DNA of 64,000 nucleotides from Marsupella aquatica (taxonomy: Eukaryota > Plantae > Marchantiophyta): positions 20,588,052 through 20,652,051 of the forward strand of contig OZ316896.1 of the NCBI GenBank assembly GCA_973895155.1. The letters are read 5' to 3'. Positions 31,799-60,866 of the stretch are shown here, one piece after another (the stretch's first letter is position 1; each line of letters opens with the position of its first letter). The notes beneath the pieces were generated by a model. The model was not told where the DNA came from, ran no database searches, and worked only from the letters and a program-made list of their open reading frames with translations. Both the position numbers and the translations under genes were made by a program.

Positions 31799-34700
31799 TG
31801 CCCCTAAAACTACACTTGCTAGAGAGAACTGTTGTCTCCTCACCATCTGAGGCAGTGGATTTCTTGCTCAACTGCCTGCCACCCACTTCCTGCTGCACTT
31901 CATCAGCCCGGGCAGCAGAATGTACATTTGCAAAGTATATCTAACATGCTCAATTGTCTGATGCCCACTGCCCATCCTAGTCAACTATTAGGACTTTCAA
32001 CCTTAAATTGAAATTTTGAGTGGGGATTTGCAGGCATTCCGAGAGGTGACAGCAGTCAGAGCATTGAGGCTAGGCATGGAACAAACATGAGCAACACAAT
32101 GTACTGTTAGGCTGCCTTGTGCTCCACCTTATGGGCATGGAGCCGGGCATGGAGCAAGACAGATAATGGGTGCTTCTCTAAAAGTATATTCATACTAGGG
32201 GGAAGGGATGTCCGGAATGGAGATGAAAAATATTAGAGAAGGGACTAGAGAGGTGAGACTGAGGCAATGCACTGCGAATTAAAACCTCTGCACAAAATCA
32301 AATGAAATCATTAGTCACTTTGTGCTGGTTGAGTTGGAAAGTCTGTTGGCACATTTTTCTTGCTCACCATTTACTGTCAGTGCTGCATTCATTAGTCAGT
32401 TTGTGCTCTGGTCCAGGGTTAAACAAGAAGCCTTAAATGATGAGTAACAAGCCCATACTTTAGGAACTCTAGCCAAAAAATCAGAAAAACAACGAAAAAG
32501 TCAAAACAAGTGCCAAAATTAGCACCTATTTTAGAACAAAAATATGGAGCGAACAAAATATGACATAAACTAGCTATGTTTTGACGCCTAAAAATGACCA
32601 AATTCATCTGAAGTTACATTCCACCAATAAATGACCTCAAATACAACACTATTATCTACAATGGTCTCACAATTACACGAGCTGTCTCTTGAAACAATAA
32701 CTAAATCACCTCCAAAAGCCATTGTCATTTAAAAACCAGAAAATAAATTACTACAACTTAACCTGATACACATTATTGTGAAAAAAAGACAAGGAGAATA
32801 GAAATGACACCATCTAATTGAATTGGAACACAACCCACTAAGAAAATATTAAACTACAAATTTCTCAAGAAACTTTAACCATGAATTCATGAATAAGTGG
32901 TAAAGGCATTTTGAAAATTTGAAAAATTTCAAGTTATCCATGTTTTTCAATGGTAATGTCACAAACAATAACTACTTTTCATTACTCAGATCCAGAAGTC
33001 CTCAATTCTTGAAACGAAATATCCCTAGATTTATCTCCTAGCGGGGTTCTAGCTGATCCATTCTCTTGTTCTTGCTCTTTCTCTTCTGCCAAAAATTCAG
33101 TCAATCAGATTTTGATTCGATCTACTGTCTTTTTGTACAATGTATCAGATTTTGTCAACATGAAGTTGTAAGCAAAAACAGTTGTTGAAGATAAATCAAG
33201 CTCTTGGTGAAACCATATTGGTTTCAAAGTTCCTTTCCCACGACCACTTTTCTTCTTTTCGTAGTTGAAGACTTCTGGTAAGTACTTGGCTTTCCAAGGA
33301 TCTGACCTGGTTTTTGCAGCATGCCATAAAACATAAATCATTTTTGGAATGTTGAACTCGTCGCGCTGGTCAATTCTTTCCACCTTGGCCACCCAAAATG
33401 TTTCCGATTCTTCTCCAGCAACAGAAATATAAGTGTTGACTTCAAGATCCGAAAAGTCTCCTTCCATATTCTCCTTCTTTGCATCTATCTTTCCTTGATT
33501 CCGATAAGGACCCACGTATATATCTCTGGTAGGTCCGTATACTCTCTCTTCAATTTCCTCTTCATTGACAAGGACTCTGGGAACTTCAGCAGCAACAGCA
33601 ATCTCCCCTTGGGAACGTGGCCATTGAAAAGGGAAAATCAATGGTCTTTGATCAAGGAGCAAAGATTTATTCAATTCCCGTTGCTCTTCAAAAAACATTC
33701 TCCACCAGTTCACTTCCTCTTATGAGAATAAAGTTTCAACTGCAAGTATTCCCTTTTGAATCTCATTTAACGAATCATCCATCTCCTTCAAAGTCATTCT
33801 TGAAGAACTAGACATATTTGGTTGAGTCCTTGTAACGTTCTTATCCCCCTTTTTGAAAAGGGGTAATCCGGGAGCACAACCCATCACCTTTTCTGGCTCC
33901 TCTTCCCTCAAAAATTTCACGCCTCCGTCAGGTTTCCAAGTTGAGTCTGTGGAAAACTTCTTCCCCCATTGGGTTGGAACTTGATCTTCCAACTTGTCAA
34001 ATGCAAATTTGTACTGGTGGTGGAAGGTAACATTTCGAATCCTTTCAATGACTAAAGGTGGATCTGAGAAGGCATATTGACGGAAATCATATGTTTCCTT
34101 TAAAAGAGTGATATTTGGTTGGGTTGATATGATTCACAAATAATATCACATAGGCTTTTGTATGTGAATGCCTTAAACCTTGCTAGTCGTTTAGAAAATC
34201 GACTGAACATTTGATCTATTTGGTCGTGTGTGTGTCCAACCAACAAGAATCCTAGTTTGATTTTCCGAAAAACCTTTCTTCGAATCAACATATGAAGATA
34301 GGCAAAGAGTAAATTATTTTTATTTTCTCTACTGGTATTATCAAGTTGAAGATAGAGAACAGGCGGCAAGCCACCAGGCTTTTCTTCCCATTCGTGAAAC
34401 ACCCTTTGCAGGATTGTGACTGTCAAGTTTCCATCATTATGCAATACAGGATAATTAAGAAACACTCTTGAAAATAGTGCACCATTGAAAACCAGGCATC
34501 CGACAACGTGCATTTGGATCAAACATGTTTCGTCCACCGATTTTGGGGGCCGCGGCCAATGAGGCAACCTTGTCTTCTTCTGATCCATCCCATCAATGAC
34601 AACTCCCAAATATTTATCAGGATTTGAAAAACATTTCTTACGATGCTTCGCGAGTTTCTCACATTCTTTGGATTGTTGGTCTCTATGTTTTTGTAACATA

Positions 34701-35911
34701 ATTCCCCTCGCCCTGGAAAAACAACACAAGGAAGTTTTGGTGCTCACCTAGGTAGGCAAACACTAAGTAACCAGGGAAAATACAAGATAGAAGATAATTT
34801 TGCCGAGTTTCATGTTGGTGTAACCTGGTACCTACCTGAAGGTAGGGATATGCAAACAACCAAAATGGGACTATTGTGGCGATTCCTAAAATACCGATGT
34901 ATACAAAGTGGATAGCTGGTAGTTCATAGATTCACCACCATAGCATGGATGTCCAGAAATTCACAAATGTGCAAGAATTGGGTTAATGTAGGACAATGGA
35001 AAACTCCAATGATAAGTTTGGAGTTAAATTTTCAAATAATTTAAGCCAATTTCTTATCGGTAACCTAACCTAACACAAGGACACTACACCTTATGAACTT
35101 CTTCGTTCCACTGCTGATGTTCATAGACCAGCTCCTGTTCAGTAGGTGGTCGAGTGCTTCTTTTGCTTGGGATTTGCTTCGACATTTTGCTGGCATCAGA
35201 GTGCTGGTTACATTCTAGATTGCACTATGCTTCAATCACCGTTGATGCTGGTGCTACGTGGTCTACTCGCTTGCTCAGCATAATCATTTTCTTGTTCACG
35301 TTTTTGGACCTTATCCTCCATAGCCCGCAGGCTCCATGCGCTCCGTCCTTTGCTCTCATGCGCACCGTCGCTACTCTCGATGTCAGAGCCAATGTCTGCT
35401 CGACACATCAAGAAATGAAGAAAACTAACTGTCTTGGCGACCATGATCGTGACCATAACGACAAGCTTGCGGTTACCTCGATCCCTGCCTGAGGATCCGA
35501 TCCAATGTCTGCTCGACACGCCAAAGAGATGACGGAACACAAACTGATCGACTAGCCAAGAGCTCATCAGGACCCGACTCGAGACTTCCATTTGCGCCAC
35601 TCTCTGTTTGAATTCAAACTTTGAATTCGCCGTCCTCTCTATTTAAGACGATCGATACTCTCCTGTGGATTCATTCTGCTCTCTCTCGCATTGGAATTGC
35701 ATTTCAGGATTCTCGAGCTCCTTGCAATTTTACAGTTCACCTATCTTCTTAGCGTTCAGCTCGATCAAGACTCAATCGTTGAGAGCCTGTATCTCGTCGT
35801 TGATGTTCGTGGCGAATTGAGCTCAATTCGTTGTGGGTGTCAGTTCTTCGTAGATATTTTGGGCGAATTGCGAGGAGATTCAGAGGAGGAATTGTTACTT
35901 GCTCCGAGGAG

Positions 35912-36058
35912 ATGGCACCCAAGGATGTAGCAGTTGCAGCGACTGAAGGCGCTACGGGAGCGAAGAAGGGTCGAGGCATGCCGAAGGCTGTGAAGAGGCA
36001 TCCCGCATTGAAGGAGGTCGGTGGAGCAGATGTAGTGGGATCGAAGAAGAAGCACAGA
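35912..36058 (+). other. Short Lys/Ala-rich MAPK-start coding fragment, possibly a captured gene 5' end
   Basis: MAPKDVAVAATEGATGAKKGRGMPKAVKRHPALKEVGGADVVGSKKKHR, preceded by TATTTAA (~35640) and a CT-rich leader. No downstream exon is visible. Confidence 0.3.
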
Positions 36059-36202
36059 GTTTGTTTAGTGAATATAATAATTATGCAACAAAGGATTAAT
36101 ACAGCTCTTACTATGAACTACGTGAGTCCAACTAACATAATAAATTACCTGATCATAACCTGCCTTTGGCTAAGCACTAGAATAATCAGATTGCCAATCA
36201 TG

Positions 36203-39200
36203 TCAAAGTGTCCATTGCAAAGGAATTCCTCTACTCATTTTTAGGACTTCCATTCCTGTCTCTAGTCTTCCTATGTCGAGAAAGGGAATCACAATGTTTT
36301 TGCTTACGGTAGCTTCCCAAATTTCACACCCTTCTCTCACCCGCTTATTTAGCCAACTCACATGGACATTGATGGAATTCTGTGTTCCTTCATCCAGAGT
36401 TGCGTCAACAAAGCTTTCTTCCTCAGGTTCATCTTGGAGTGTATTTTCCATAGAGTCAACATCCATAGCTTCGGCAAGAGATGAACCTCCTTCAGTCCGG
36501 CCCTGTGCTAGATCTTCAACACTCCTTACAACCGCCAGTCTCAGCCTTCCATGTACACGAACCTCCACCACATCATGTATTTTGGGGTAAGTAGGGCATG
36601 TATGAAGGCCATATGTTTCTATATGTTGACGCTGACTTCTGTCTTGAAGTTCCAGGCATACAATCTCAGAGGAACCTCTTCCTGCTTGTCGACTAATGGG
36701 CATAAATTTATGCAATAAACGAGAAACTGGTCGAAAACTGGTATCACCATAGTGTTCGGCTGTGGCTCCAAGCAATGGCAAACCTGAGAGCTTGTCAGTT
36801 ATCATCTGATTATCAAGTGATCTTTGTATACTGAACCACTTGGCCTCAAAAAATAACTCCTGGTGTCCCAGAAATTCATGGACAAATAAGTCTAATATGA
36901 CTGCTCTCCAATTCCAACTGTATTCTGGACTGTCCTCGTCATCTGTCAATACTACCACATGGTCACCAATCCTGAAAAGAGTGTTCCTCACCACTACAGA
37001 TTTCAAAGGGATAACTTTAAAATCCATGACAGTCCTAAACAAGGACGTTGCCAGCCCCTGAAGAGCCCAATGCCATTTGACAAAATTGCTGCCATCCTCA
37101 GAAAGTAGACGCTTCTTCGCCTTTGTTCTACCTACTCCTATTCCTCTAGAGAGAATGGAAATTGCACAATGAGAATCGATAGCAAATCTACTCATATTTT
37201 TAACTAGTGAAAGAGCCTGCTCTTGTGATGAGACTACAACAATACAATTCTCATGCCATTTAGGGCAGGTAAAGTCACGTTTGTCCCTTGCTGCATGCTC
37301 AATTGCTCTGGCTCCTGTTGGCCTCAAACGGTTGTGTGCTTCCAACAGTGTACGATGCTGTGGCAGAAATCCATCATCATCATTCCAAATCATCATGCAT
37401 GTTTTAGTAAAAAACTGCCTGACGTGATGGGAGGTGAAAGTTAGCTCCATTTCCTTGTTGTTGGTGGCAGTCCGTCCATAACCAGAGACCATACGTTCGA
37501 ACCTGTAGCACCAATACACCCAGTGTGGACCATGTTGTTCGATGTCATCCAACAACTCACCGCTACCTACAAGACAAATTACATCTCATTTGTAAGATGA
37601 GTGATCGAGGCTAACCAGTCTGCAGTTGCCTTGAAAAAATAGCATAAAAAATTACATCCTAAAATATTTCTGTAACAAACCTGCAACGTGTTCGAGTATA
37701 GAGGCATTAACTCCAAAATGCTCCTCACTCCTCACCCGCCATGAAGCCAACAGACTTCTTGCCTTCTCCAAAGTTGACTTCCTCCACCCCTCCTCCCTAC
37801 TTTGAATGTAAAAGAGTCTTCCGATCTCAAATAACAGCATGCCAATTGAACCTAGAGGATTTTCAACTCCTAATCTCAAGCTATATAGTATGTGCGGTAG
37901 ACAAAATATAACAAATCGAGTATATTCTTCAGCTTTGAAGTAACCTAGTCTGTCCCCAGGATCTTTCGGCCATCTCCCATCCAGACCTTTAGGTTTTCTG
38001 GCAGTCACTTCTGCTAAGGCCTCCTCTAAAACTTTGGTTTGGGAAGGTGTCAAACTTTTCATCAATTTTGTTACATAGCTCTTGAATAAGTTGAGCGCAA
38101 GTATATGCATGACATCATATACTAAATCAGATATCAAACAGAAACCAAAGGTATCGCTTAACCTCCAAGCCTTGCCAACTGGTTAATTCCATGCTCTTGG
38201 GATATGCTTACCCTTGAAACTTCTGTTGTACAAAGAGAGTACCTCTGGGCAGCATCTCTAATGACCGCCAAATCTCGTTTGGCAGGAGGGTACCGCTGCA
38301 AATAACGATTGTTACCATACACAGTAACTCCTTTGGGCCCTCTTCCTGAAGTGTTTGATTGTTTTTTCCACGTGCCTTTCACTAGACACCTCCTGCACGG
38401 TGCCTTCCCCCTCTGGCACCACCCTCCAAATTTGCATTGGGCCGGGTGGTCTCCTGTAAATAACATTAGTCTCACCCTACAAGTACAATCTTTTGAGGTG
38501 ATAAGGTCATGTATTAGCTCTGGCGCATATGAAAAATGAAGAGGGAATCCGGCAACTGCCAACATTTGCACGTCTTGGAAAAATGGCTCCATGAAAGCTT
38601 CCAAGAAGTGCAATTTAAGCTTGGTGAGTTTTTCAGTAGCACTGTTTGGTATAAACAGAATGGGAATAGGTTGTATGTCAGAATGGCTGCCCACATTCAG
38701 TATACTTATCTCCACTGTCCATGTGCTTCTCATAACTGAAGATGCTGATTGGAAACCATCCCAGTGAGCCATTAGTGCAATATTGCGAGGGTCCCCCTGG
38801 GTACAATAAGAAAAACAATTTAATTAGCATGAATGATCGAAGTCAGAAGGAATCCAAGAGAAAAGAATGATTCTCAGATTAGCAAACCATCACAACGACA
38901 ACGACAACGACATTCAGAGGCCCATTCAGAGGGAAGAAAAACAGTTATTCAGATTAACATGCATGTACTGACAGCGCCGCATTCAGAAACGATCAAAGAG
39001 AGAGAAACAGGTTTTAATATTCTAAGCATAAGAGCATGTAATATATTGCAGCTGGCTGCATTCAGATCGAAGAAAGCAAAGAGTGCAATCTAATTAAACA
39101 GGTTTTCAAATAAAATTTATTAGAAGTATCATGGAGATTTTCAGAGGGAAGTAATTGAGAGCAGACAAATTCATGGAACATCAACGTACATCATTTGGCT

Positions 39201-40573
39201 AGTACCTGAACATATACTGGCCTTATTTGGAGCCGATTTCCGCAAGTGCACACAATGTCATACATGTGGATGTCTCCCACCAGCTTCAATCCTTGGTTCA
39301 AAAGGTCGCATTTCTCTGGGTAGGTAGCATAGCCTTTCCAACAAGTCTGGCATACCACAGGTAACTCATAGGTGCAACACGGGTCCCAGAAATAGGAGTT
39401 TTGTTTGGCTTTCGAGCCATCCCACCATTCGCTAATTACATCGTCTTTGAGACTCCCAAGCTGGAGCCAACGAGCTCTCTCCCTCCACATGGTTAGTATT
39501 TCATGGCAATAGCTTCGTGATCGACACAAATGAGATATCAATGGCGCAATAGGCAGGTAATCAAACCTTAACATATCTTTGCGCTTGATTCTACACCCGA
39601 AGACATCACATCGCTCGCTGCAGGTTTCACAATCTCTGCACAAAATATTCTTGCATAGAGAGCACTTACAACTCTTGCTCGTTGTTTTTGCTTGGTCATC
39701 CTGGATGCTTGGTCCAAAGGCCTTAGGTTCGTGAAAGTTGTCGTCAGCCCCCAAACACAGACGCCATTGATGTGGTTGAGGTGCGCCCATCACTTTGTAA
39801 GCAGCCGCCAAGCCATTGAAAGTCCCCAAGGAAGGTATTCCTAGTGGACCACCATCCCATTGAGTACCAGCATACCTCAGCAGTGAGCCAAGGGGTACAT
39901 TCCTGTAGTCAATGACTGGACTTGCATCGATTGGTTTGAACAAAGCTCTCAAAATCTTGTCCTGCAAGTCCATAGAAACTTTAGCAGAATCCAACATGGA
40001 CTGGAGTCTCCATGTCTCTCTATAAATAGCCTCGCTCAAAGTCAAAGGAATTTCGTTGAGTACAGCGGTTGAGTAGTCGTTGCATCCAACATTATCAGAC
40101 AATGGCATAAGAGTTTCTGCACCATCCACCCCATCCTCTGTTGCACACCCAACATCAAAAGCACAATAGCTTGCTGGGATTGCATCAGGGTCACTTGCAT
40201 ACGTAGACCGAGGGCCATTGACAAAACCAAGCAACGGTCTGAGGAGTAGCGTGCTTTGTATTCTCCATTTGGAAGTCCTTGACAGCTTTGCAAAATCAGA
40301 TGGAAGATCTGATTGTTGACGTGAACAATCTCCAATCACATCAGAGGACTGCCCTTGCACTATTCTATCTCTTGGTCTTTGGGTCGACACTGCTGCCTGG
40401 TGCAAAGGAGGGTGGACCGGAACATGCCGCGCATCTATGAGAATGCCTTGTTTATCCTTGAGTCTATGATGACCTCTAGTTCTTTTGCTCACCAAATCAA
40501 AGCCGTCAGACATTCGTGAACATCTATACTTGCAATCACATCTGACTTTCAAACTCAAATCAAAATCCTCCAT
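36203..40573 (-). pseudogene. Divergent CACTA/EnSpm Tnp2-like transposase with C-terminal BAH-like and Tudor-like segments; one frameshift
   Basis: Exons ~40573-39206, 38796-37681 and 37566-36203. Motifs GDPRNIALMAHWDGFQ (cf. DPRNVRLGLxTDGF), TGDHPAQCKFGG...APCRRC, YDVMHI and HGPHWVYWCYRFERM (cf. GPVxxRWMYPFER). Frameshift near 38175. Confidence 0.85.
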
Positions 40574-43500: not shown

Positions 43501-44242
43501 TATTCTAACATACCTTTAGGATGATTTAATTCCAAAGGTTAAGTCACACAGCCTAGCATCACCTCCCAAATGCTACAAGCTAGCATGCCTCAACTCATGA
43601 GACCTAGTCAGAGCCTTGCATGCACAATATGAGTCTGAAATGTTTTGAACATACCTTGAGGGTAATCTGGTTTAATTCAAATGTATTATGCACAAAATGT
43701 AGAGTCACCTCCCAAATGCAACAAGTATGCCTAACTTGGACAATGTCTTGAGACCCATTTTAAGCCTTGGATAACCTAGAGCATAATCAAATATTTGTGA
43801 TATGCTTTCAGTATGCTGATTGACTTCAAAAGGTCCAAACAGAAAGTTTAGTGTTAATTAGCTTGCAAGACAAAGCAGCTGCAAGCATGCCTTGAACACA
43901 GTTTGAAATGGAAATTGTGCACAACTTACCTTGGGATCATTGCTACTAACATGCCTTGAGGGTGGGTCTACAATTAAAGCGTAGGCCATGGACGGCAACC
44001 GTGACACCAAATGGGATATTTGTAACACCTTGATTGTACAATTTATAGTTTGGCATGTCTTAAAGCTTCCAGACACATTGAATTGAAGGTACTATTGTGC
44101 ATTTTGCATGAGTACTGAAACAAACAAAAGTATTAAGTATTAAGCAATTGAATAATTATATTATGCAATGAGCGCCTTGCCTGGCCTCCTCGCGATTTGT
44201 TCCAAGTGTCCTCACCAGGACACCTGCCATGGGGGGCAGCGA

Positions 44243-48652: not shown

Positions 48653-48753
48653 GCGTGTGTGTGTTTTTATCTGAGGACCAATGCAATACTACTCGGTAGT
48701 TGCAATTACAATCCCAATGCAATACTACTCGGTAGTTGCAATTACAATCCCTC
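48603..48753 (+). repeat. (CT)n microsatellite followed by a ~38-bp tandem duplication
   Basis: CT run at ~48603-48650, then CCAATGCAATACTACTCGGTAGTTGCAATTACAATCC twice. Confidence 0.9.
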
Positions 48754-49806: not shown

Positions 49807-52800
49807 ATGAGGTCTTCGCTATACGCAATGAAGGAAGGAGAATTGGCCAATTCTTTGGCCAAGTTTCTCAAAATGGATACATACAGACAGAAGATTGTCG
49901 ACAATTGCATAGATGGGTCTGTATTTCAATGCTCAGAAGACGAGGTTGATGCTCTTCTCAAGGAGTCTGGGTTCACCATCCCTGGTCATCGAATGAGAAT
50001 CAGAAAATGGGTCGAAGAGTGCAAACGCAAGGGATCTGTGGTTGATCAACTTGAGTTCAGCATGCCTGCTCCAGTGCGGCCAACCTTGGGAGAGGGATCA
50101 GTCAAACATGACTCCCCAACATTGCTACGAAAGAGTGGAACAGTAGGAGAGGTTGGAAAGGGTAAACAATTCTCCATGCAGACTTCAACATCAATGCAAA
50201 CCTCAACATCGATGCACACTTCAGTTGAATTTGAGTCTCACAAAACAATGCAGCACAAGGTATGTACGTACAACACAGTTTAATTGAGATTGTTTAGTAT
50301 ATTTTACTGGTAATGTCTACGCACTTGGAGTGTTTGGCACATCTACTGTACGTTAGACCTGGGGCTCATCCCCTATTGTACCCATGCTCTTCTCCAACGA
50401 CAAGCCTGCATGTTCCATGTTGTCTGATGTATTAATCTAGAATGAAGGTGTTAATTTCGATCCTAACGTATTCCCTTATGTCTCGATCAGAGGGAGCAAT
50501 TGAGATTTCCAACTTACGAGGAGATATTCAAGCAGAAGAAAACTGGTCGTAAATTACTCCAAGCCTGGCCTCATGCCTGCTTAGCGCATAATGAGAACTT
50601 GAGGACGATTCGGAAGTGGTTTTCTGAACCTGAACAGAGGCACTTTATGGAGCATGATTTCAAACAAAATGCAAGTCTTCGGACAGAATGCCTTGATTTT
50701 GCAAGGTCAAGAATGGATGACCTCCGGCCATTGGTATTTGTGGATGATGTAGAGGGAACTGTGGCTTCAATGCGTTGGAAGCTTGAAGATGTCTACGAGG
50801 CCATCATCAATCGCAAACATGAATTCACCAAGGGTGAAAAGAGGAAATTGGCAAAACTGGGTAAGCTGAGTGGTCCATTGTTTCTCAATATTGATGTCGG
50901 ATGATTTAATTTTTTGGGGCTCAGAAGTGACGGAGTAGGGTGGTCCAGTGTTTCTCAATTTTGATGTCGGATGATTTTGTTGGGCTCAGAAGTGATGGAG
51001 TAGGCAAAGATGTTAAATGGGTCAGACATGCTTTATCTGAGATTGAACTTGCAAGACGTACATTGATTCAGAATCTTAGTTACCATATTAATCTATTGAA
51101 TATATTCGGTTTTGTCAGGTGAAGAAGACGCTCCGCCTACCAAGGCACGTACACCTCAACCCGAACCCCAGGTGATTCTTACCCAAGATGACAAGGACTT
51201 GCTAGAATTCAATAGCAGGCCAGAGTATGAGATGCTTCTTTATGCCACTCCTACTCAGCTGACAGCCTTAGACATCCACAAAAGGCAAAAGGGAAAGGAT
51301 TGCAAAAGAGATGACGCAGACTTATTTGGGAAGGGGAAGGTTCTGGCAATCGCCAAACAAAATCCATATAAAGTGTACCAGATCAAGATTACCCACCTCT
51401 GTCCTGAGACATCGTCTAGGTTGGCTGAATACTACATTCCGTGTGGCCCACACAGCGCAGACTTTGACACCCAATTGTGCATGCTAGACCTGGTAAACTC
51501 TCTATTTCTTTAATAAGCTCTTGCATGACGTTTGTATATTGTGGACAAATCACATTACTTCCAATTCAAGACTTTGTCGGCATAGCTCAATCATCCATAC
51601 ATGTACTTACAGACTTAATTAGCTTTCTTATTGTGCAGGGTACTAAGATTCAAATAGCACAACCCTATACTGCGCTAACTCCACAACCACCAGCTGACAT
51701 CACTTCAGATTTAGTGAATCAAAGTACTGAAGTTTTGGATTCCACATCTTGTGATCAGGACAAATCTGACAATGTGACCATGGAGCACCAATTTCCTGCA
51801 GTTCAGCGAAGATTGAGTAAGGGCAGATCTAGTCTGGGTTCTAATGGGACTTCAGATTCGATCCACAACTTGGATGAATTTGGTAAAAAAATTGTGCAGA
51901 TTACTCCTACACGTGACTCATCCAGGTTGTCCAAGTCAAGGAGAACAGTGGATAACTCAGACTCACCCTCCCCTTTGACAGAGGTATATATAGGCATAGT
52001 TATCAAGGGAATCTCAAGCTACGTATTTTCTTTTACTGTACTACTTCTTTTTGTTGTTAGCTTACCCTATATTAATATATGTTTGTACTTGTTTTGCAGG
52101 TGACTGTCAAGTTGGAAAGTAGCCCAATTGACAAATCTGACAATGTGACCATGGAGCACCAGGTTGAATTTCCTGCAATTCAGCAAAGATTGAGTAAGGG
52201 CAGATATAGTCTGGGTTCTAATGGGACTTCAGATTCGATCCACAACTTGGATGAAGTGGGTAAAATTTTTGTGCAGATTACTCCTACACGTGACTCATCC
52301 AGGTTGTCCAAGTCAAGGAGAACAGTGGATAACTCAGACTCACCCTCCCCTTTGACAGAGGTATGTATAGGCATAGTTATCAAGGGAATCTCAAGCTACA
52401 TATTTTCTTCTACTGTAATACTTTTTTTTGTTATCTTACCCTGTATTAATATATGTTTGTACTTGTTTTGCAGGTGACTGTCAAGTTGGAAAGTAGCCCA
52501 ATTGAATTGCATAGAAAGAAGCCATCACCCAACTTGGCTTACGGACGCAGGATTAGTGGTCAAAAGAAATCACAATCGAAAGCCACATTGTCTAGGTGTC
52601 TTGCTGATTCTCAGTCAGAAAGAGAAATGGAGACAGAAGTGACAAATGAGAAATCCTTTGAGGAGCTCATGTCAAGCCCCTTGTCAAGGCCAACCAAGTT
52701 TCAGGCTAGCTTCAGTAACAAAGAGAACATTTTGGCAAGTTTACCCAAACCAAGGGGGCCATGTCCTGGAGAGGACAATGGTGTGAAGATGAGAAGTTTA

Positions 52801-53688
52801 AAAGACATCACTAACTCCAAACCGTTGTCTGTCACAGCAGTCACAACACCGCTACTTGCTTTCCAGGTTTGTAATTCACATGATTATAAAACTCTGACTA
52901 GGTCCATGTAATCCATGGACCTACCCATGGACTATGATTATAACAATAATAGAGTTCTGGAATTCTCAGGCTTGTCAGTGTGGTGTGTGGGCCTGCTGGG
53001 TGGTGCCTCCTAGTGGTCCTGGATTTCCCTTACCTCTATTCTGTCATTTTTGTTGCAGACATTGAGTGGCAGCCCAATTCACCCTCCCGGCACTTCCAGG
53101 TTATTTATATTCTATCATTTTCTGTGGCCATTCTCTTTTGCAGGCGTTGAGTGGCAGCCCGGTTCACAAAGTTCCACGTTCAAAATCTACAGCACCTGTT
53201 CTGAACTGCAAGACAAAGGTAATCATTTAGTCTAGATACTTTAGCCCTTATTTATTTGTGCATTAGAGTATTTTTTTTAATTTGAGGTATGAAAAGATAC
53301 TGAAATCCTCATGCTATTAAATTTTGTTTGGTGTGCATGCGCGCAGGAATACACACAGTACACTACAAGCCCTATTACAAGCTCAAAAACAAATTGGAAT
53401 CCGTTAACCTATCAAGCCCAAGTCAATGTCTGTATATTGGTCATGAATGTCAAAAACCGTAATGAGGTGGAGACCAAGATAACAGATTGGATTGGTACTA
53501 AAAATGCTAAATGTAGAGTGGGCAAAAAATTATTTGCTGGACACTTGAAGTATGGCGTGGTTGAAAAAATAGAAATGGTGACCAATTGGGCGCTTGATGC
53601 TGGAATAGTGGAGATAGTAGATGCTCCACCTATGGTAAAGGGTAGGCTAGATTTAACCATGGATAATCTAAGGCTTGGTGAGGATTAA
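49807..53688 (+). CDS. Multi-exon accessory gene of the inner element with an N-terminal SAM-like domain
   Basis: LAKFLKMDTYRQKIVDNCIDGSVFQCSEDEVDALLKESGFTIPGHRMRIRKW fits the SAM consensus (Y..F..N.IDG...L...G....GHR..I). Approximate exons: 49807-50259, 50491-50860, 51119-51491, 51639-51983, 52101-52360, 52474-52866, possibly 53144-53218, and 53348-53688. Not every junction was phase-checked. Confidence 0.65.
51760..52505 (+). repeat. ~374-bp exon-plus-intron tandem duplication within the SAM gene
   Basis: The segment DKSDNVTMEHQ...SPSPLTE|intron|VTVKLESSPI occurs twice with high identity. Confidence 0.9.
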
Positions 53689-55418
53689 TATGATATATAT
53701 ATATATGTCATGTTTGACTTCAGCAACAGAATCCTAATATATAGAGATCTAGGGTTCACTAGTAGTTGACTAGTAGTCAATAATATATAATGGCCAACAT
53801 ATATGTTAACTGTAAAAGATACCTATGCAATTAGGTGGATACAAATGTAGTAGACTTTTACCAATTGTACATTGATACAATTATTGTAATTCAATGGAGG
53901 CTGGTGCTACTACCTCTAGCTCCTGCTATTTCCTATATAGTATTATATTTGTCAGTGAATTGAAATACCAGCATGAGTACTTTGTCTTATGCTCAAAAGG
54001 TTGAATTGGTTTGCTTTGTCTACTAAAAGAATAATGTTTGCTTAAATAAATATTTTAAATTATAAAAATTGGACAACTGAGATGAAAAGAGATCGAGCCT
54101 TCTTATTAAGGTTGGCAAAACAAGAAACACTTCTCATTATAATATTCAGGTATATACGTTGACAAAGAAAACGTTTACTGTACTAGGAATATTGAATTCT
54201 CCAAATAGGCTGATGTAAATCAAGGAATATACAAAATACCCAAATCATTTTGCAAAAGTAGGATTTTACAATACGCCAAAGTAGGATTTTACAACATGCC
54301 TATGATTTATCTTCAAGGACTTTGTCCCACATGTGAAATCTGGGTATATTGAAGTTTCCTATGCCGTCCAAACAGCCAACATAACATCCCGGGGAATGTT
54401 TCATAAACCCATTTAAGGTCAGTTTCCCCACTTCTTTGTCAAAAATATGGGGGAAATGGGTTTACATCTAGGATATTAGCCAAGGTGGGGGTAAGACAGA
54501 AACTCCTTGTGCAACTTGTTAGTTTCTTAAAAAAAATAAAAAATCATGTGCTAAGCCATATTCTTGAAACAAAAACTTGTCAAACTTGTACTAACTTACT
54601 CTTTTCGGTCTCCGAGACAGCTTTGTCCCGAATTGATTTGAACTCCTCGCAATCCGCGCAAGCACTGAATCGATTGACTGGAGGAATCTTCACATGACCA
54701 AATTCTTGAACCCAAACTTTCAAGAATTGTCGATAGGATATTTTTGATGATTCATCAATCTTGGCATAGTTAGAGTCGTAGATCTTCCATACCTCCAGCT
54801 TTGAATAATTATCCGGTAAATGTGAAACTTCTTTATTTGGCAATGTTTCCACGCGTGTCTCAAAAAACGACCTAAGCCAACTGACCAAGACTAATCTTTT
54901 AACAGATGGAGGGCGTCCAACTGGTTTAGAATATCCTAAGTCTTGGTTGTCTAATTTCAAAATTCTATTTATTATTCTATGATTGCCAACGCAAAATATA
55001 AGCTTGAAAGCTTTCCGACAAATACTCTTTTGACCAAACGTGTAAGATATAGTCTGCCTCCCTCCTTCATTTTCGTCTCGCTTTATAAGCCACTTCAAAG
55101 ATAAAGATCGATCCTGAGATTTCTGCCTCAAAAATTTAGAACGCGCCTCACGAATTTCTTTTGGAGATAGACTTAGGAGACAATGACTCTGACAACAGTA
55201 CTTACTATTTGTTTTCTTGATATCCTCCTCTTTCAACTTTGTTTCACACAAAGTGGCGTTGCTCGTACGTTTGTAACGACTAGATGCCACCGGAACATCA
55301 TCATCCTCCCCACTCTCCGAAGACTCGGTATCATTTGATGATGAAATGGTCACCAACATTTGCTTCTGAACATGCCGAGATTCCAGACCTGCAGCCTTCA
55401 GAGATGGAGGCTCTTCCT

Positions 55419-55711
55419 CTTGGGGGTTTCACTTCCACAAAAATGGCATATCACGTGCGACGAAGGATAGGGTCATTTTATTGGTTGTAAGGGAAGACTT
55501 AAGAATTTTTGTAGAAGAACAGTAGGGTCTTTTAAATTCAATTTTGAGACTTATAAGAACATTAGGGCCTTTTTAATCCAATTTTTGGAATATTCCAAAA
55601 TATTCCAACTTTATAGGGGTTAAAAAATTAAAAAAAATCTTACATTTTAGGGGGTCCAAGGCCTAAAAACGTCGCAGGTTGGGGAGGTCCCCATGTAGTG
55701 AGACCCCCGAG
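55419..55711. mobile_element. MITE (CTCGGGGG family, 2-bp TSD) interrupting outer transposase exon 1
   Basis: CTTGGGGGTTTCAC...GTGAGACCCCCGAG with TSD CT. Removing it plus one TSD copy joins ORFs 55640-56332 and 54580-55359 in frame (HRVKEE-EEPPSLKAAGLESRHVQKQMLVT). Confidence 0.92.
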
Positions 55712-57013
55712 CTCTTCCTTCACTCTATGCAACCTTGGAATACCTAGGCGTATTTCAGAAATCCCTCCATTACCGTGTAGGGACCCTTTCAATATTTTCC
55801 TAGGGTCCCTCTCCACCAGGTTGGTTTCCCTGTTTGAGTTTCCGTGACTTGATCCGCTCCTTGCCCCAACACCATGACTCGTAGGTAAAACTGAGGAACG
55901 CACATTAGAATTCCTTTCTGGAATACTTTTCAATAACACTGGTCGCCTAGTTTCTTCCCTCATCCCCCTGTGAAATGTTTCCGACGTTGGCTTACCAAAG
56001 GTTTTAATTTTTGGCATTTGCTTCAGCCGCTGAACACTTTGGAGACTGCAAAAATCTCCGTCATTTTCCCCACTTAGTGCCTTCTTCGTCTTTCCAAATC
56101 CAGTCTTCATGAATTCATGAGACCGTTTCCCAGACATCCAAATAGGCATTGAACCTTCCAGATTACTCCCCAATTTGTCCTTTGTTGGTGACAAAGGAGA
56201 TACAACTTGACATCCAGGGGGACCAATACTCTCCAAGGAGTCAGAGGAGCTCCCTGACCTCTCCTTACCACCGACCAATGATTTCTTCCCACTAATTGCA
56301 AGTCGTAAAGGACTACTTTTTAACTTGCTCATAGGGGTGGGGGTGGCATATCTAAAACAGTAGTTATTCCAGGGATATCTGGGCCAACCACTGTGCAGGG
56401 GCCATCCGGCAATGAAACATCATCAGAAACTCCATCTGAATAATCATCTGATTCGTAACATGCCGCCATTGGAAAAACTAGTGCAAATTGACAAGAAACT
56501 CAAAAAATCAGTAAAATCTAACAAATCTTCTCAAAATAATGACCAAGAGTCATGAATAAACGAGCCTATTTATAGTTTTTCACGGACTGTGGGGACTTTT
56601 TAACTTCAAAAATATCAAATATTCATGAAATTTACAAGCTTTTTCCCGTAAATACCCTGAAATATTCATGAATAATTGGCCCAAAAACATTGATTTATCA
56701 TGATTTGGGGTTAATTTTACTAAGTCACGCCTGATCCGTGATTAGTATGTATAACCAAGGAACACGGGGCAGCCCATTCATTTTCACTCGATGTCATTTG
56801 GATTTCCTTTGTAAAAGAGTGAAAAACAATCTCGCTGTCCAATTTCGTGCCATTTTCAGCACTCATCGGCGACGTGTCGCGAGTTGTCGTGGTCGCGCTT
56901 CATTTCGACCCTGTTTTAGGTAGTAATTTAGGCCTTGGGTGATTTCTTCACGTCACCCTCCCTCCGAACCCCATTTTGAATACCCTTCTGCATCACCGAG
57001 GTGTACAAGCAAA

Positions 57014-57084
57014 GAGAGAGGAGACTCCCTTCATGAATTCATGAAGGTCGGTGCGAGAGGGAGACTCCCTTCATGAATTCATGA
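57014..57084 (+). repeat. Direct repeat with a palindromic core between the divergent genes of the outer element
   Basis: GAGAGxGGAGACTCCCTTCATGAATTCATGA occurs twice; TCATGAATTCATGA is a perfect palindrome. Confidence 0.7.
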
Positions 57085-57249
57085 TAGGAGTCCTGGGGTG
57101 GTCGAGAGCGTTGTTAGATCCATAAGGACACGGCTTTAGTAGCCATTTGTTGGCACATTCTTTGGTTCTGTGGCACTTTGTCTCATAGGTTGGGGTTGAA
57201 GTGGACTGATTTTGTGGTATGTTCTCAGGTTTGAAGATCAGGCGAAAAC

Positions 57250-60200
57250 ATGACAATGTCGCAGGAAGAGCTGGTGGATGACATCTTTTCGAGCCATCCT
57301 TTGACGGACTTCCACAACTCATCCTGGACAATTTCCTTAGGGACGGAAATGTGGAAGAAGCCCTTCCTAATGCTGTGTGTATTTGAGGGGCTTCCATTGG
57401 GGGCATTAGGGTTGGTAAATTACGGCCGCATTGATGTATTTTGACGGGGCGACGAAGTTGTGAACATGTTGATCACAACGAAGGAAACATCGACTGTGAT
57501 TGTCGTGGATGTGGAGAGGTTTTTCGGAACGGCTGCCACCTGCTATCTCGATGAGGACATCGATAGCATCATTGAGACTGTCAAGTCTCTTTCGAGTGAG
57601 GAACATTACCACGACGTCGCGGGAAAGATTTCCGGTTTTGTGTTCGAATTTCACGCTAGCACTTTAAAGAGTGCAATCCAAAAATCGAGAGAGATTCTCT
57701 GGTCCAAAAGGTCGGCAGAGAAGGGGGTAAGTCGTCCACCCAAATTTGGGGCTTCCGGTGTTCCTCCTGGATCCAGGCCTAGCATTTTACCCGATGATAT
57801 TTTGACCGTGGTAGCGCCTACAACCTCCCGGGAAGCAGCAGCATCTGGAGGGGGATCTCAAGTTGGCAGATCATCCCAGGGAACGGCTTTGATTGGTGGG
57901 TCGGCACAAGGTACAACTGGAACTCGCACTTCTTCAAAGAAGCGACCTGCTATGACTCCTGAGCCTACTGAGCCCAGTGTTCCAAAGTCAAAAAAGAAGA
58001 CTTTGGAGTAAATTCCAACGCATTTGAAGAAAAAGGCTCAATCAATGTCAATGGATGCACGGGTATTGTACCAGGAGGAGATTCTAGGAAGATGTGGTGT
58101 TCAAGAGGAGACCGTGACCGTTGACATTGGTCAACTTTACCCTCCAGTGAGATAGAAGGCTGTGGGCTTGCCCATTTACCAGGTCCGACACATCCAACCA
58201 TATTTCTTGACCCAATTGACCTTGTGGATGAAGACTGTAGGTGCCAGTCCACTTGCAGCTCCGTTTGTCCTCTTGGTGGATCCAAAGGAGTGTGCTACTA
58301 GGCAAGACTTTGATTTTTCAAGGAAAGTTGATTACCATTATTATGTGATTGGGGGCAACCATTCAGCCTGTGCCAAAGCAGACCTTGCTCTTCAGTTCCC
58401 TAACAACAAGGCATTTTGGAGAGTGCAATCTTGGATATTTGCAGGATTGAGTGTGCAAGAGGCAAGAAACCTGGCGTGGAGTCACAATATTGATTCTGAA
58501 TTTCGACAACAGATGACGACAATCCAGAGAGTAAATTATATTCACATGAGATTTGTGGAGAATGGATTGTCGTCCAACCAGGATTTCAAGAAAGAGTGTG
58601 CTACTGAAATCAATCTCAAGGATTGGGGTGTACGAAAGGATGCTGAGGTTCTTAATGCCAATGATAACCTATTTCAGTTGGCATTCCGACAAGATCCTGT
58701 GTGGTCATTTGTGAGGCAGATTTGTGACAAGTGGGAGATGTGTGAGATCAAAGGTCAAAAAGGAGACAAGGGCAAGAAGAAAGTCTCTAAGTCTGGAGAT
58801 GCCAAATTGCCTTATGAGGACATGAAATTAACAGAGTGGAGACACATGCAGGCCTTGAAAGATCCTGATATGATTTGCCCAGTGTTACAGAGAGTTCTTA
58901 CTAAAGAACTCTCTTTACAGGAAATGGGTCACGAATTTACTCGACACAAATTTCAGATGCAGCCTGTGCAGAAGGCCTTCCTCACGTGTCTACACGAGGA
59001 GAGTTGGTCAGGTTGTAAAACCAAGTACCCTGAGCATTGCACAGACAATGTGCTTAAGAATTTTGTACGTGTTTTCCATACATGGGTAAGATTCTATCAC
59101 CTTTCTCCGAATGATTGTTTGAATTCATTTAATATTTGGAATCCTTGTTTCTAATTGTAAGGTTCCCTTTTGTAGAAAGATACCACCTCCCGGAAAAAGA
59201 AGGGAGATGAGAAAGGCAAAGATCTCAAGTCATTCCCGGACAAATTCAATGCGCATATTGTGCAAGCACAAAATTGGCTATCCATGAAGACTTCTAGTCG
59301 GCAAACCCAAGAGGGGGAACTTCATCCAAATTCGTTTGAGCATCCAGAGTTTGGTGATGTGCACTTTGATATTTTTACTCATGATGCTCAGCGATTACAC
59401 AAGGTGGTTCCGGGTCGGGCTTACACATTAGCTTTAGTGGATATTCCCTACGGGTTTGCATTGCCTGGATGTCTTCATGAGGACACTATTGGATGGGGAA
59501 CTGAGGAGATCACAAAAATGGTCCAAACGTTCAAGGTGGCTACTACTGCAAAGTTGTGGCGTATTATCATTCACCACAGCCTTGACCAATATGAGGCCAT
59601 CAAGACCGTTTTGAAAGCGGAGTGTAATGGAGGGTTCCAGAATTGTGTGTGGTAAGAAATACTTGTTTTTGAAAAAAACAACAATGAGTTATTCATGATT
59701 TCATGAACCATGTTTCTAAGTTTAAATGACTCCTTGACTTTTTGTGACTTTTCAGGGTTAAGAATAATGTGAAGAATGTTGGTGGGCCAAGATTGAACAG
59801 CAACTTTGAGTGCTTTACAATTGGCTTTCACAGCCAGGATGGTAAACAGTCATTGGAGCACTTCAATTTTGACACAAATGAATCAAGGAACTATGTGGTT
59901 GTATGCGCAGCTGTGACTAAGAAGCTGAAACACAACGGGGATAACAAGGCAGTGAATGTCTATCAGAAACCACGTGCATTGTTAGATTGGGAAGTGAGTC
60001 ATTTTAGTCAGGTTGGAGACTGGGTTTTGGATATTTGTTCAGGATCAGGGACTGGGACAACCTCCTCCTTGGCCATGGGGAGACATTGCGTTGCCATTGA
60101 GATTGACGAGCGACAGAGCAGTGTGTTTAAAGGGAGGATTCTTAACCTTGCAGATAACATTGAAGAGGAAGACAGACAGGGGGAGACGGATGAGGAGAGT

Positions 60201-60317
60201 GAGGAAGACATTCCTCAGGCCGGAGAGGATAGCGTGGTTAACGATGCCACAATTGTTCCAGAATTGACAGCAGGGACTTCTGGAACCGAGGAAGGGGAAG
60301 CGGTCCCTTTGGATTAG
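57250..60317 (+). pseudogene. ParB-like domain fused to a beta-class N6-adenine/N4-cytosine DNA methyltransferase; three exons, three in-frame stops
   Basis: Exons 57250-59085, 59176-59651 and 59756-60317 splice in frame (~958 codons). ParB/Srx-like segment: VTVDIGQLYPP..YQVR..APFVLLV..YYVIGGNHSACA..EARNLAWSHN. MTase motifs: motif IV ALVDIPYG, WVK...FE, QKPRALL, and motif I GDWVLDICSGSGT..AMGRHCVAIEID. Stops at 57442-57444, 58009-58011 and 58153-58155. Confidence 0.85.
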
Positions 60318-60866
60318 ACTAGGTAAATAGAGGGACTCGTAGCATTTGAAACCACTTGGGCTTAAGTTGGGTTATATTTTGTAAAACTTTGAGTTTGACT
60401 TAAACTCTGATCAATGAGTTTGATTTTGACTACTTTTATAAAGTGCATATTTCAAGGTTTATACAATTGTGAGAATATCATATAAGATATGCTTAGATTT
60501 TGGTGGTAAAATTCTCTTGAGTCTAGTTTGGAAAATACATACCATTTTTTGGTGGTTTTTTGGTACACATTTTTGAATATCATGAAGATTTTGAAAAGAG
60601 AAATAAGGCTTTGGACTCATCCCTTAAGGCTTCTTGTTGTTAGCAGAACCCAAGAAGTATATTTATATATTTTTTCATCATCTTTGACTCCTATGACATT
60701 TTTTCTCACATGGACATCCGTCTCTCTCTTTCACTTCTTTTTCTCATCTGGGTACCTTTTTTTTGCTTGACATTTTTTCCTCACCTTGAAACCTTCTTCT
60801 CTCCTCGACATCTTTAATTTGTTCACTTGAACATATTTTCTTTCCTTGACATTTTTTTCTCTCCTC

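What the first reader, a model, noticed from the sequence alone, without database searches (positions are those of the whole stretch)
32416..60651. Reconstructed ~8-kb two-gene Sola-like element hidden under 20 kb of nested insertions
Seen: removing the inner element and the MITE leaves TIR, minus-strand transposase, an ~800-bp divergent spacer, the plus-strand ParB-MTase gene, and TIR. The transposase halves are 20 kb apart but splice in phase. Known: Sola-type elements are normally described with a single transposase gene. Inference: this may be an undescribed cargo-bearing family, comparable in concept to fungal KDZ/Plavaka transposons associated with TET/JBP DNA-modifying genes.
Basis: partly seen in the sequence, partly recalled or inferred. 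Interest (0 to 1): 0.82.

Follow-up and report, generated by a model that had tools for sequence, protein, structure and literature searches.

The report
Decayed transposon carrying ParB-methylase gene
This is a broken 28-kb copy of an about 8-kb cut-and-paste transposon in a plant-like genome that carries, head-to-head with its transposase gene, a ParB-like DNA methyltransferase gene that would likely mark the element's own DNA; the same design was described in algae in 2025, so it is a new member of a known kind.

Summary
A 32-nt terminal inverted repeat (32422-32453 / 60607-60638) flanked by a 4-bp duplication (GTTA) bounds one element. It holds a minus-strand DUF7869 transposase split by a 19.9-kb intron full of foreign DNA, a 780-bp spacer, and a plus-strand gene joining a ParB-like domain to an N6_N4 DNA methyltransferase. 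A 292-bp MITE with a 9-bp duplication sits in transposase exon 1.

Both genes are dead in this copy (frameshifts, four in-frame stops).

The pairing is not chance:
- An independent metagenome contig (L001) has the same head-to-head layout.
- In Riccia sorocarpa the two homologues carry neighbouring locus tags.
- Two Logan proteins lie on contigs of one length, 8829 bp.

I also found a 14-bp palindrome, TCATG-N4-CATGA, kept at the same places in three copies. It is a candidate binding site.

The "undescribed family" reading fails. [quoted passage not shown]

Direct homology to Sola1 could not be tested here. The transposase motifs do not look like Sola2.

Verdict: a real feature, a new streptophyte member of a known kind, of moderate interest.

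The parts
32418..32421 (.). left copy of the 4-bp target site duplication GTTA
   Evidence: register fixed by the TIR arms
32422..32453 (+). left terminal inverted repeat (starts AACAAGAAGCCTTAA)
   Evidence: 32 nt, 84%; the terminal 15 nt are exact and unique
33105..34712 (-). transposase exon 2 (DUF7869 core and C-terminal region); frameshift near 34121, in-frame stop at about 33720
   Evidence: (PF25273, E 2e-45)
34713..54595 (-). transposase intron, 19,883 bp, swollen by foreign insertions: Tnp2-like ORFs at 36203-40651 (-), inverted-repeat unit at 43416-46720, ORFs of unknown function at 49759-53688 (+); the insertion ends are unresolved
   Evidence: (depth jump at about 54562)
54596..56469 (-). 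transposase exon 1 (starts MAACYES...), interrupted by the MITE and by a frameshift near its start
55410..55710 (.). MITE (55419-55710) plus one copy of its 9-bp TSD GCTCTTCCT; high-copy family, another copy at 14554-14837
   Evidence: (joint 55409->55711 in X3 and X5; 10-30x more summed depth)
56107..56120 (.). palindrome TCATGAATTCATGA inside the transposase 5' coding region
   Evidence: same place in L001: 346-359
56470..57249 (.). 780-bp divergent spacer between the two start codons
57031..57084 (.). pair of palindromes TCATGAATTCATGA, 40 bp apart (57031-57044 and 57071-57084), about 170-220 bp upstream of the ParB-MTase ATG
   Evidence: (I9)
57250..59130 (+). ParB-MTase gene exon 1: N-terminal region, ParB-like domain (motif YYVIGGNHS at about 58340) and helical region; in-frame stops at 57442, 58009 and 58153
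59176..59655 (+). ParB-MTase exon 2 (approximate ends): methyltransferase motif IV, D-I-P-Y-G
59693..59706 (.). palindrome TCATGATTTCATGA in the last intron of the ParB-MTase gene
   Evidence: (same place in L001 at 4375 and in L002 at 3215)
59755..60317 (+). ParB-MTase exon 3 (approximate start): SAM-binding motif I (LDICSGSGTG), PF01555
60607..60638 (-). right terminal inverted repeat
60639..60642 (.). right copy of the 4-bp target site duplication GTTA

Best explanation
The stretch 32422-60638 is one decayed copy of a two-gene cut-and-paste DNA transposon: a DUF7869 transposase, likely of the Sola1 kind, head-to-head with a gene for a ParB-like domain fused to an N6_N4 DNA methyltransferase. 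The accessory protein is predicted to bind the element's conserved TCATG-N4-CATGA palindromes and would methylate adenines on or near the element.

Shown: the ends, the TSD, both genes, the nesting, the decay of this copy, the recurrence of the gene pair in other copies and species, and the conserved palindromes.

Inferred: the transposase excises and inserts the element with a 4-bp duplication. The two genes are driven from the shared 0.8-1 kb spacer. The ParB-like/HTH module tethers the methyltransferase to the palindromes. The D-x-P-Y enzyme writes 6mA rather than 4mC. The benefit to the element (escape from silencing, or control of its own promoter) is speculative.

In this copy, foreign DNA of about 19.7 kb then landed in the transposase intron, a MITE landed in exon 1, and both genes accumulated stops and frameshifts.
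For: Ends and TSD.

One transposase in two halves, broken at the family's own intron position. The relatives' ORFs start inside a pyrimidine-rich stretch just before ...GDMLL.

DUF7869: E 2e-45.

ParB-like and MTase parts form one gene. In 5 of 5 metagenome loci with enough downstream DNA (L001-L005) the MTase exons follow the ParB-like part. Continuous proteins carry both parts: P0142, P0150, P0166, P0171, P0191, P0233, P0246.

ParB fold: AlphaFold model at pLDDT 78.7. The Foldseek top rows are all Spo0J, Noc, ParB or KorB, E 4e-3 to 0.1. VIA-align gives KorB Z 8.0 (190 aligned, rmsd 4.8), ParB Z 7.4, Pnob8 ParB-N Z 7.0, PadC Z 6.8 and sulfiredoxin Z 4.3-4.6, with unrelated rows at 3.8 or below.

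MTase: PF01555. The profile's best PDB matches are the N6-adenine enzymes CcrM (1.9e-9), RsrI, MboIIA and DpnA. Motif IV reads D-x-P-Y/H in the window and in most relatives of 250 aa or more that hold the region.

Pairing elsewhere:
- L001 has a minus-strand ORF starting MAACYEGNSDSDASSDDVSLP, against the window's MAACYESDDYSDGVSDDVSLP at 56469. A spacer of about 1 kb follows, then the ParB-MTase gene.
- The Riccia sorocarpa proteins R1sor_010795 (DUF7869) and R1sor_010796 (ParB-like plus MTase) lie on a contig of the same length.
- P0002 and P0008 are each on a Logan contig of 8829 bp.

Many copies: summed contig depth rises from 0-15 (X1) before about 54562 to thousands. It stays in one range over the transposase N half, the spacer and the MTase gene.

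Palindromes: 4 matches in the window against 0.10 expected, with 0 of 100 shuffles reaching 4, and all 4 in the outer element. They sit at the same places in L001 and L002. In the spacer alignment, the long runs of invariant columns are the two palindrome cores.

Published parallel: Sola1-1_Ec32 has a 4-bp TSD biased to end in A, AAC... termini and an opposite-strand ParB-like MTase gene.
Against: - Homology of the DUF7869 transposase to Sola1 was not tested, because no Sola1 sequence or usable profile was at hand. Its motifs (DGMDQKK, LDNTSRENKN, GHTHDQIDQ) do not resemble the Sola2 alignment.
- The L001 match to the transposase start is only 21 residues (E 0.001 against the window).
- L003, a 39% relative on a 9.5-kb contig, has no DUF7869 within 2.8 kb upstream or 4.6 kb downstream. 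That copy lacks the N-terminal 330 residues and is flanked by retroelement pieces.
- The identity of the 8829-bp contigs is inferred from length alone.
- Contig depth is not copy number (tool warning).
- Pfam and PDB sequence searches do not see ParB. The ParB arginine motif is replaced by GGNHS, so CTP-clamp or nuclease activity is doubtful.
- There are no data on DNA binding, methylation or expression.
- This copy is dead.
Confidence: 0.75

Rival explanations
1. The two-gene layout is real, but the transposase belongs to a separate, unnamed DUF7869 superfamily or to another named one, not to Sola1. The likeness to Sola1-1_Ec32 would then come from the same accessory gene being captured independently.
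For: No direct comparison with Sola1 was possible. The motifs are unlike Sola2. In red algae the related accessory genes have moved between Plavaka, Mutator, Zisupton and Fanzor elements (bioRxiv 10.1101/2025.02.11.637652, passages read). An earlier scan note reports a Mutator-like element with such cargo.
Against: The 4-bp TSD ends in A, the termini start AAC, and the accessory gene lies on the opposite strand, all as listed for Sola1-1_Ec32. A 4-bp TSD is stated for Sola2.
Confidence: 0.3
2. The palindromes are not sites for the ParB-like protein. They would be transposase binding sites, or host transcription-factor sites of the bidirectional promoter, and the methyltransferase would act elsewhere or on another substrate.
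For: Two of the four sites lie in the spacer, where a promoter is expected. One near-match lies in the left subterminal region at 32878. Nothing links the ParB-like domain to this motif.
Against: Sites are also kept inside the transposase coding region and in the last MTase intron in the window and L001, and in that intron in L002. That is odd for a promoter element. ParB-family proteins typically bind palindromes of about this size (established knowledge of parS). Arrays of inverted repeats lie next to the ParB-like PAG3 gene in Bostrychia.
Confidence: 0.35
3. The left part (TIR plus the transposase C half) and the right part (the transposase N half, the MTase gene and TIR) are remains of two different copies brought together by chance, not one element split by insertions.
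For: The ends of the inner insertion(s) could not be defined and no uninterrupted copy from this genome could be laid.
Against: The same 4-bp GTTA flanks both outer ends. The halves neither overlap nor leave a gap. They break exactly at the intron position of the family and can splice in phase. Both are on the minus strand.
Confidence: 0.05

Closest known systems
Sola1-1_Ec32 of Ectocarpus (PMC12477816, Genome Biol 2025; passages and supplementary table 1 seen)
   Same: A DDE cut-and-paste element with TIRs, a 4-bp TSD (there biased to end in A; here GTTA) and termini starting AAC. [quoted passage not shown] Nested foreign insertions and pseudogenised copies are common.
   Different: That element is 21.5 kb with 282-bp imperfect TIRs and a 1104-aa accessory protein, in a brown alga. 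This one is about 8 kb without its insertions, has 32-nt TIRs, and sits in a streptophyte-like genome with relatives in Riccia, Chara and Ginkgo. Direct sequence comparison was not possible. The conserved TCATG-N4-CATGA palindromes are not mentioned in the passages I read.
Plavaka (EnSpm) elements of the red alga Bostrychia with accessory genes PAG2 and PAG3 (bioRxiv 10.1101/2025.02.11.637652; passages seen)
   Same: [quoted passage not shown] Inverted repeats next to the ParB-like gene are proposed as its own binding sites.
   Different: There the two domains sit in separate proteins (methylase plus SET; ParB plus 2OG oxygenase), on a different transposon superfamily.
Sola2 elements carrying Fanzor1 (PMC3627910; passages and supplementary alignment seen)
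   Same: Sola-type elements with a second, non-transposase gene, a 4-bp TSD and short TIRs.
   Different: The cargo is a TnpB-like protein, and the Sola2 transposase motifs differ from those here.
Bacterial and phage ParB-fused N6_N4 methyltransferases, and beta-class N6-adenine enzymes such as CcrM and RsrI
   Same: The domain order is ParB-like then amino-methyltransferase. Motif IV precedes motif I. The best PDB matches are CcrM, RsrI, MboIIA and DpnA.
   Different: This gene has introns, an extra N-terminal region of about 300 residues and GGNHS in place of the arginine motif. tblastn of the last MTase exon against 50,697 phage records found nothing. That ParB-methylase fusions are common in phages is recalled, not tested.
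MpDN4MT1a/b of Marchantia (bioRxiv 10.1101/2021.02.12.428880; passages seen)
   Same: A prokaryote-type amino-methyltransferase in a bryophyte.
   Different: Those are host genes with a TSPPY motif that write 4mC in sperm. Here the motif is D-I-P-Y and the gene is transposon cargo. Kinship was not tested.

Membership tests
Sola superfamily (Sola1) | Transposase homologous to Sola1 transposases (RNase H-like DDE/D core) | not testable with these tools
   No Repbase or Dfam is at hand. Bao 2009 and Yuan & Wessler 2011 are not held. A Sola1 HMM exists as text in a supplement of PMC5751038 but was not rebuilt. Only Pfam DUF7869 was matched.
Sola superfamily | 4-bp target site duplication | tested here: met
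   GTTA at 32418-32421 and 60639-60642. A 4-bp TSD is stated for Sola2 and for Sola1-1_Ec32.
Sola superfamily | Terminal inverted repeats | tested here: met
   32 nt, 84% complementary, terminal 15 nt exact.
Sola2 | Catalytic-core motifs as in the Sola2 transposase alignment (DFAENY ... SDG..QYKN ... HGK..CDG.GG) | tested here: not met
   Compared by eye with Additional file 10 of PMC3627910. The window has DGMDQKK, LDNTSRENKN and GHTHDQIDQ.
Pfam DUF7869 (PF25273) | Score above the gathering threshold | tested here: met
   155.2 bits against a cut-off of 26, E 2e-45.
Two-gene elements of the Sola1-1_Ec32 type | ParB-like plus DNA methyltransferase gene inside the TIRs, on the strand opposite the transposase, and recurring in other copies | tested here: met
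   Window anatomy; L001; Riccia neighbouring locus tags.
ParB/Srx fold | ParB N-terminal domain fold followed by a helix-turn-helix DNA-binding domain | tested here: met
   Model at pLDDT 78.7. Ranks 1-13 are all ParB, KorB, Noc, Spo0J or PadC at Z 5.5-8.0, then sulfiredoxin at 4.3-4.6, with unrelated rows at 3.8 or below. Z is middling by the tool's own note.
ParB (CTPase or nuclease type) | Arginine-rich GxxRxxA / GERRxRA box (motif recalled) | tested here: not met
   The family has an invariant GG and a near-invariant H (VIGGNH[ST]) and no arginine there.
Pfam ParB_N (PF02195) | Sequence match to the profile | tested here: not met
   No hit at E up to 10 for the window ORF or at E up to 0.1 for 7 relatives. 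The Atlas lists a viral ParB_N cluster only at 0.90 with 94 shared features.
N6_N4_Mtase (PF01555), beta-class amino-methyltransferase | Profile match above threshold; motif IV (D/S-P-P-Y-like) before motif I (FxGxG-like) | tested here: met
   35 bits against 26.7. D-I-P-Y-G lies in exon 2 and LDICSGSGTG in exon 3.
N6-adenine (rather than N4-cytosine) specificity | D-P-P-Y-type rather than S/T-P-P-Y-type motif IV | tested here: inconclusive
   The motif is D-x-P-Y and the nearest solved enzymes are N6A. TSPPY is named as the N4C mark. A motif does not prove specificity.

The most novel reading that the evidence does not exclude
A streptophyte-wide lineage (Chara, liverworts, Ginkgo and this genome) of Sola1-like transposons carries its own site-directed epigenetic writer. 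The ParB-like/HTH module docks on four conserved TCATG-N4-CATGA palindromes, in the shared promoter, the transposase 5' region and the last MTase intron. The fused enzyme then lays 6mA on the element, so that the transposon marks itself to control its bidirectional promoter or to evade host silencing. This would be a self-targeting adenine-methylation system in land-plant relatives.
Probability: 0.25. Interest if true: 0.7.

Novelty: new member of a known kind. Interest (0 to 1): 0.4.

Why it matters
Transposons that carry their own DNA-modifying enzyme are rare. They could show how mobile DNA manipulates host epigenetic control.

[quoted passage not shown] This window and its relatives extend it to streptophytes (Chara, the liverwort Riccia, Ginkgo, and unnamed close relatives). 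My searches found no paper describing it in land plants: of which one search returned 0 papers and only the Ectocarpus paper.

The conserved 14-bp palindromes give a concrete, testable candidate for the site that the ParB-like domain recognises. They turn the published idea of 'binds and modifies its own sequence' into a simple binding and methylation experiment.

The copy in the window is itself dead and of no functional weight.

Tried and rejected
- No whole genome is held, so intact copies, copy number and TIR/TSD statistics in the source genome could not be obtained.
The left half, and a joint across the whole insert, were therefore never laid.
- No RNA holder was listed.
- The TIR as a homology boundary is not resolved. 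The bin 60587-60827 mixes element and flank, and a very high-copy repeat starts at 60867. Loose ends at 60638 were not among the rows shown.
- Ends of the inner insertion(s): there is no inverted repeat between 34700-36300 and 53000-54650. A CACTAAGTAACC end at 34761 has no partner.
- ParB by sequence: Pfam and PDB phmmer and profile searches found nothing. The first AlphaFold model from 8 sequences was too poor at pLDDT 57.
- Phage tblastn with the last MTase exon found no match.
- A profile search for longer named relatives was wasted on a length band of 1580-4510 residues.
- The TIR 15-mer is absent from the 10 metagenome loci, none of which reaches an element end.
- L003 has no transposase nearby, but that copy is truncated.
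- Literature: 'DUF7869' returned 0 papers. Bao 2009 and Yuan & Wessler 2011 are not held. The Majorek 2014 supplement gave no usable Sola1 text, and one of its files was not searchable.
- Atlas leads were not followed: DUF3723 fungal clusters for the ParB-like ORF, and DUF6830 and DUF4218 for the inner transposase.
- A link to Marchantia DN4MT1 was considered and not tested.


Full report
**1. What is there**

The window is eukaryotic DNA of about 42% GC with spliced genes. No genome is held for it.

The repeat finder reports an inverted repeat with arms 32422-32453 and 60607-60638, 32 nt long and 84% complementary. The outermost 15 nt (AACAAGAAGCCTTAA) are identical at both ends. They occur nowhere else in the window, even at 2 mismatches.

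In exactly that register both arms are flanked by GTTA, at 32418-32421 and 60639-60642. I took the register from the tool and did not choose it myself. The chance of a 4-bp match is therefore about 1 in 256. The element spans 28,217 bp.

**2. The transposase**

The ORF 34100-34747 (-) matches Pfam DUF7869 (PF25273) at E 2e-45. A search for longer relatives gave 92 proteins. The closest are 72-82% identical and unnamed. About 50 are from the liverwort Riccia sorocarpa. One is from the fern Adiantum and one from a sea urchin.

Full-length relatives (P0030 at 1076 aa, P0035 at 917 aa) align their N part to 55197-54598 and their C part to 34711-33111, both on the minus strand. The two halves are therefore one gene.

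The ORF-only predictions of the closest relatives begin in a pyrimidine-rich read-through just before ...GDMLLQKH. This means the family has an intron at this very place.

An in-phase splice exists, using donor AA|GTTAGT (first intron base 54595) and acceptor CCAG|G (first exon base 34712). The neighbouring donor A|GTAAGT is out of phase. The intron is 19,883 bp long.

Exon 1 is interrupted by a MITE at 55419-55710 with the 9-bp duplication GCTCTTCCT. Removing 55410-55710 opens a frame of 509 codons.

The copy is decayed. It has a frameshift near 34121, an in-frame stop at about 33720, and a frameshift shortly after the start MAACYES... at 56469.

**3. The second gene**

On the plus strand an ATG at 57250 opens a frame that relatives P0001-P0007 (616-658 aa, 54-68% identical in the core) cover from 57262 to about 59130. 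Three in-frame stops break it, at 57442 TGA, 58009 TAA and 58153 TAG.

Two further exons follow:
- About 59176-59655, with D-I-P-Y-G (motif IV).
- About 59755-60317, with LDICSGSGTG (motif I) and PF01555 at E 1.8e-8, above the Pfam threshold.

The order of motif IV before motif I is that of beta-class amino-methyltransferases. A family profile finds CcrM (1.9e-9), RsrI, MboIIA and DpnA first, all N6-adenine enzymes. N4-cytosine enzymes rank lower. D-x-P-Y is the usual form of motif IV among the relatives of 250 aa or more that hold the region. 6mA is therefore the more likely product, but this remains an inference.

**4. Is the front part ParB?**

Sequence methods say nothing. A first model from 8 sequences was poor, at pLDDT 57. 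With 16 sequences the model reached pLDDT 78.7.

Foldseek's best rows are all Spo0J, Noc, ParB or KorB, at E 4e-3 to 0.1. The second look with VIA-align gives:

| Match | Z | Detail |
|---|---|---|
| KorB | 8.0 | 190 aligned, rmsd 4.8 |
| ParB | 7.4 | |
| Pnob8 ParB-N | 7.0 | |
| PadC | 6.8 | 84 aligned, rmsd 3.4 |
| Sulfiredoxin | 4.3-4.6 | |
| Unrelated chains | 3.8 or below | |

The Z scores are middling by the tool's own note, but the list is uniform. I therefore accept a ParB/Srx-like N domain followed by an HTH domain.

The arginine box of ParB is not kept. The family has VIGGNH[ST].

**5. Is the pairing more than adjacency?**

(a) The ParB-like part and the methyltransferase are one gene.
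- In 5 of 5 metagenome loci with enough downstream DNA the MTase exons follow.
- Several predicted proteins hold both parts. These include proteins of Riccia, Chara braunii and Ginkgo.

(b) L001, an independent contig about 70% identical in the core, has a minus-strand ORF of 234 codons. It starts MAACYEGNSDSDASSDDVSLP, against MAACYESDDYSDGVSDDVSLP at 56469 in the window. A spacer of about 1 kb and then the ParB-MTase gene follow it. The match is short, but it lies in the right place and orientation.

(c) In Riccia sorocarpa the transposase homologue is R1sor_010795 and the ParB-MTase homologue is R1sor_010796. These are neighbouring locus tags on a contig of the same length. Both align to the window.

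(d) P0002 (ParB-like) and P0008 (transposase, 79% identical) are each the sole member of a cluster seen on one Logan contig of 8829 bp. That is the size of an uninterrupted element, but identity of the contig is only inferred.

(e) Contigs of four coded runs were laid on 54080-61300 at 80% likeness.
- Summed depth jumps at about 54562. In X1 it goes from 0-15 to 4129, and in X3 from about 700 to 13,715.
- From there to about 60586 it stays within one range over the transposase N half, spacer and MTase gene. The exception is the MITE bins, which are 10-30 times higher.
- One contig each in X3 and X5 skips exactly 55410-55710, so these are copies without the MITE.
- An X3 contig identical over 60615-60893 shows the same insertion in organism B.
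- The tool warns that depth is not copy number.

Against the pairing: L003, a 39% relative on a 9.5-kb contig, has no DUF7869 nearby. However, its gene lacks the first 330 or so residues and is flanked by retroelement pieces.

**6. A conserved palindrome**

The idea came from the Bostrychia passage and two earlier scan notes. I looked for palindromes and found TCATG-N4-CATGA four times in the window, at 56107, 57031, 57071 and 59693. The expected count is 0.10, and 0 of 100 shuffles reach 4. All four lie in the outer element, which is 12.8% of the window.

L001 has four copies (346, 1233, 1273, 4375) and L002 has three (316, 358, 3215), at the same relative places:
- One in the transposase 5' coding region. 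L002 does not reach that far.
- A pair about 40 bp apart in the spacer.
- One in the last MTase intron.

In an alignment of the three spacers, the long runs of invariant columns are the two palindrome cores; only scattered single columns outside them are invariant. This is good evidence for a selected cis element. What binds it is not shown.

**7. The nested DNA**

The intron holds several foreign pieces:
- ORFs with a weak Transposase_21 match at E 4e-4, below threshold. Atlas leads point to DUF6830 and DUF4218.
- An inverted-repeat unit at 43416-46720.
- Plus-strand ORFs without any family at 49759-53688.

The ends of these pieces could not be fixed.

**8. Comparison with what is known**

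PMC12477816 (Genome Biology 2025; passages and supplementary table 1 read) describes the 21.5-kb Sola1-1_Ec32 of Ectocarpus. It has AACCG...CGGTT termini and a 4-bp TSD biased to end in A. [quoted passage not shown] They cite Iyer et al. 2011, which I did not see, and Petroll et al. 2025.

The Bostrychia preprint (passages read) has the methylase and the ParB-like domain in separate accessory genes of Plavaka elements. It notes inverted-repeat arrays beside the ParB-like gene.

PMC3627910 (passages and supplementary alignment read) shows Sola2 elements with Fanzor1 cargo and 4-bp TSDs.

The element here shares the TSD length, the final A of the TSD, the AAC start of the termini and the cargo layout with Sola1-1_Ec32. 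I could not compare the transposases directly. The motifs are unlike the Sola2 alignment. Supplements of bioRxiv papers were closed, and figures are not held.

**9. Verdict**

This is a real, well-bounded but dead copy of a two-gene transposon family that is abundant in this plant lineage. It is a new streptophyte member of a kind already described in algae.

The new points are:
- The land-plant-lineage range (Riccia, Chara, Ginkgo and this genome).
- The compact form of about 8 kb.
- The conserved palindromes.

My searches found no paper on such elements in land plants. Earlier notes of this scan report look-alikes in an animal and a plant (unchecked). Interest is moderate, at 0.4.

Noticed in passing
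window 5000-31000: A large direct duplication of about 17.5-17.9 kb period (for example 6941-7240 against 24770-25069 at 92%, and 10464-10763 against 28221-28520 at 96%). It contains arrays of 69-72-bp tandem units at 7238-8000 and 25067-25900.
   Followed up: no
window 60867-61210, 44243-44603, 13536-13682: A very high-copy repeat family. Summed contig depth is about 800,000 in X1 and 2,000,000 in X3, with many loose ends exactly at 60866/60867. One copy lies just outside the right TIR and one inside the nested DNA.
   Followed up: partly
window 55419-55710 and 14554-14837: A high-copy MITE family of about 290 bp with GGGGGT.TCAC... termini and a 9-bp TSD, which suggests a Mutator-like origin.
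   Followed up: partly
window 36203-40651 (-): The inner element's large transposase-like ORFs have only a sub-threshold Transposase_21 match (E 4e-4). Language-model leads point to basidiomycete clusters, DUF6830 and DUF4218, so it is possibly an EnSpm/Plavaka/KDZ-like transposase.
   Followed up: partly
window 49759-53688 (+): A run of plus-strand ORFs with no Pfam family, including a 377-bp tandem duplication (51790-52055 against 52167-52432, 95%) that repeats an exon-like piece.
   Followed up: no
window 43416-46720: A unit of about 3.3 kb bounded by nested inverted repeats (27 nt at 93%, 60 nt at 75%, 30 nt at 83%). It may be a separate non-autonomous element inside the nested DNA.
   Followed up: no
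window 58156-59154 (+), the ParB-like ORF: The protein language-model search puts the ParB-like ORF nearest to fungal DUF3723 clusters (score 0.95-0.96, 178-191 shared features). This is a possible distant link between this accessory protein and an uncharacterised ascomycete family.
   Followed up: no
L003 1-9507: A 39%-identical ParB-like plus MTase gene copy lacks its first 330 or so residues. It is embedded between a non-LTR retroelement-like piece upstream and LTR-retroelement gag and RNase H-like ORFs downstream.
   Followed up: partly
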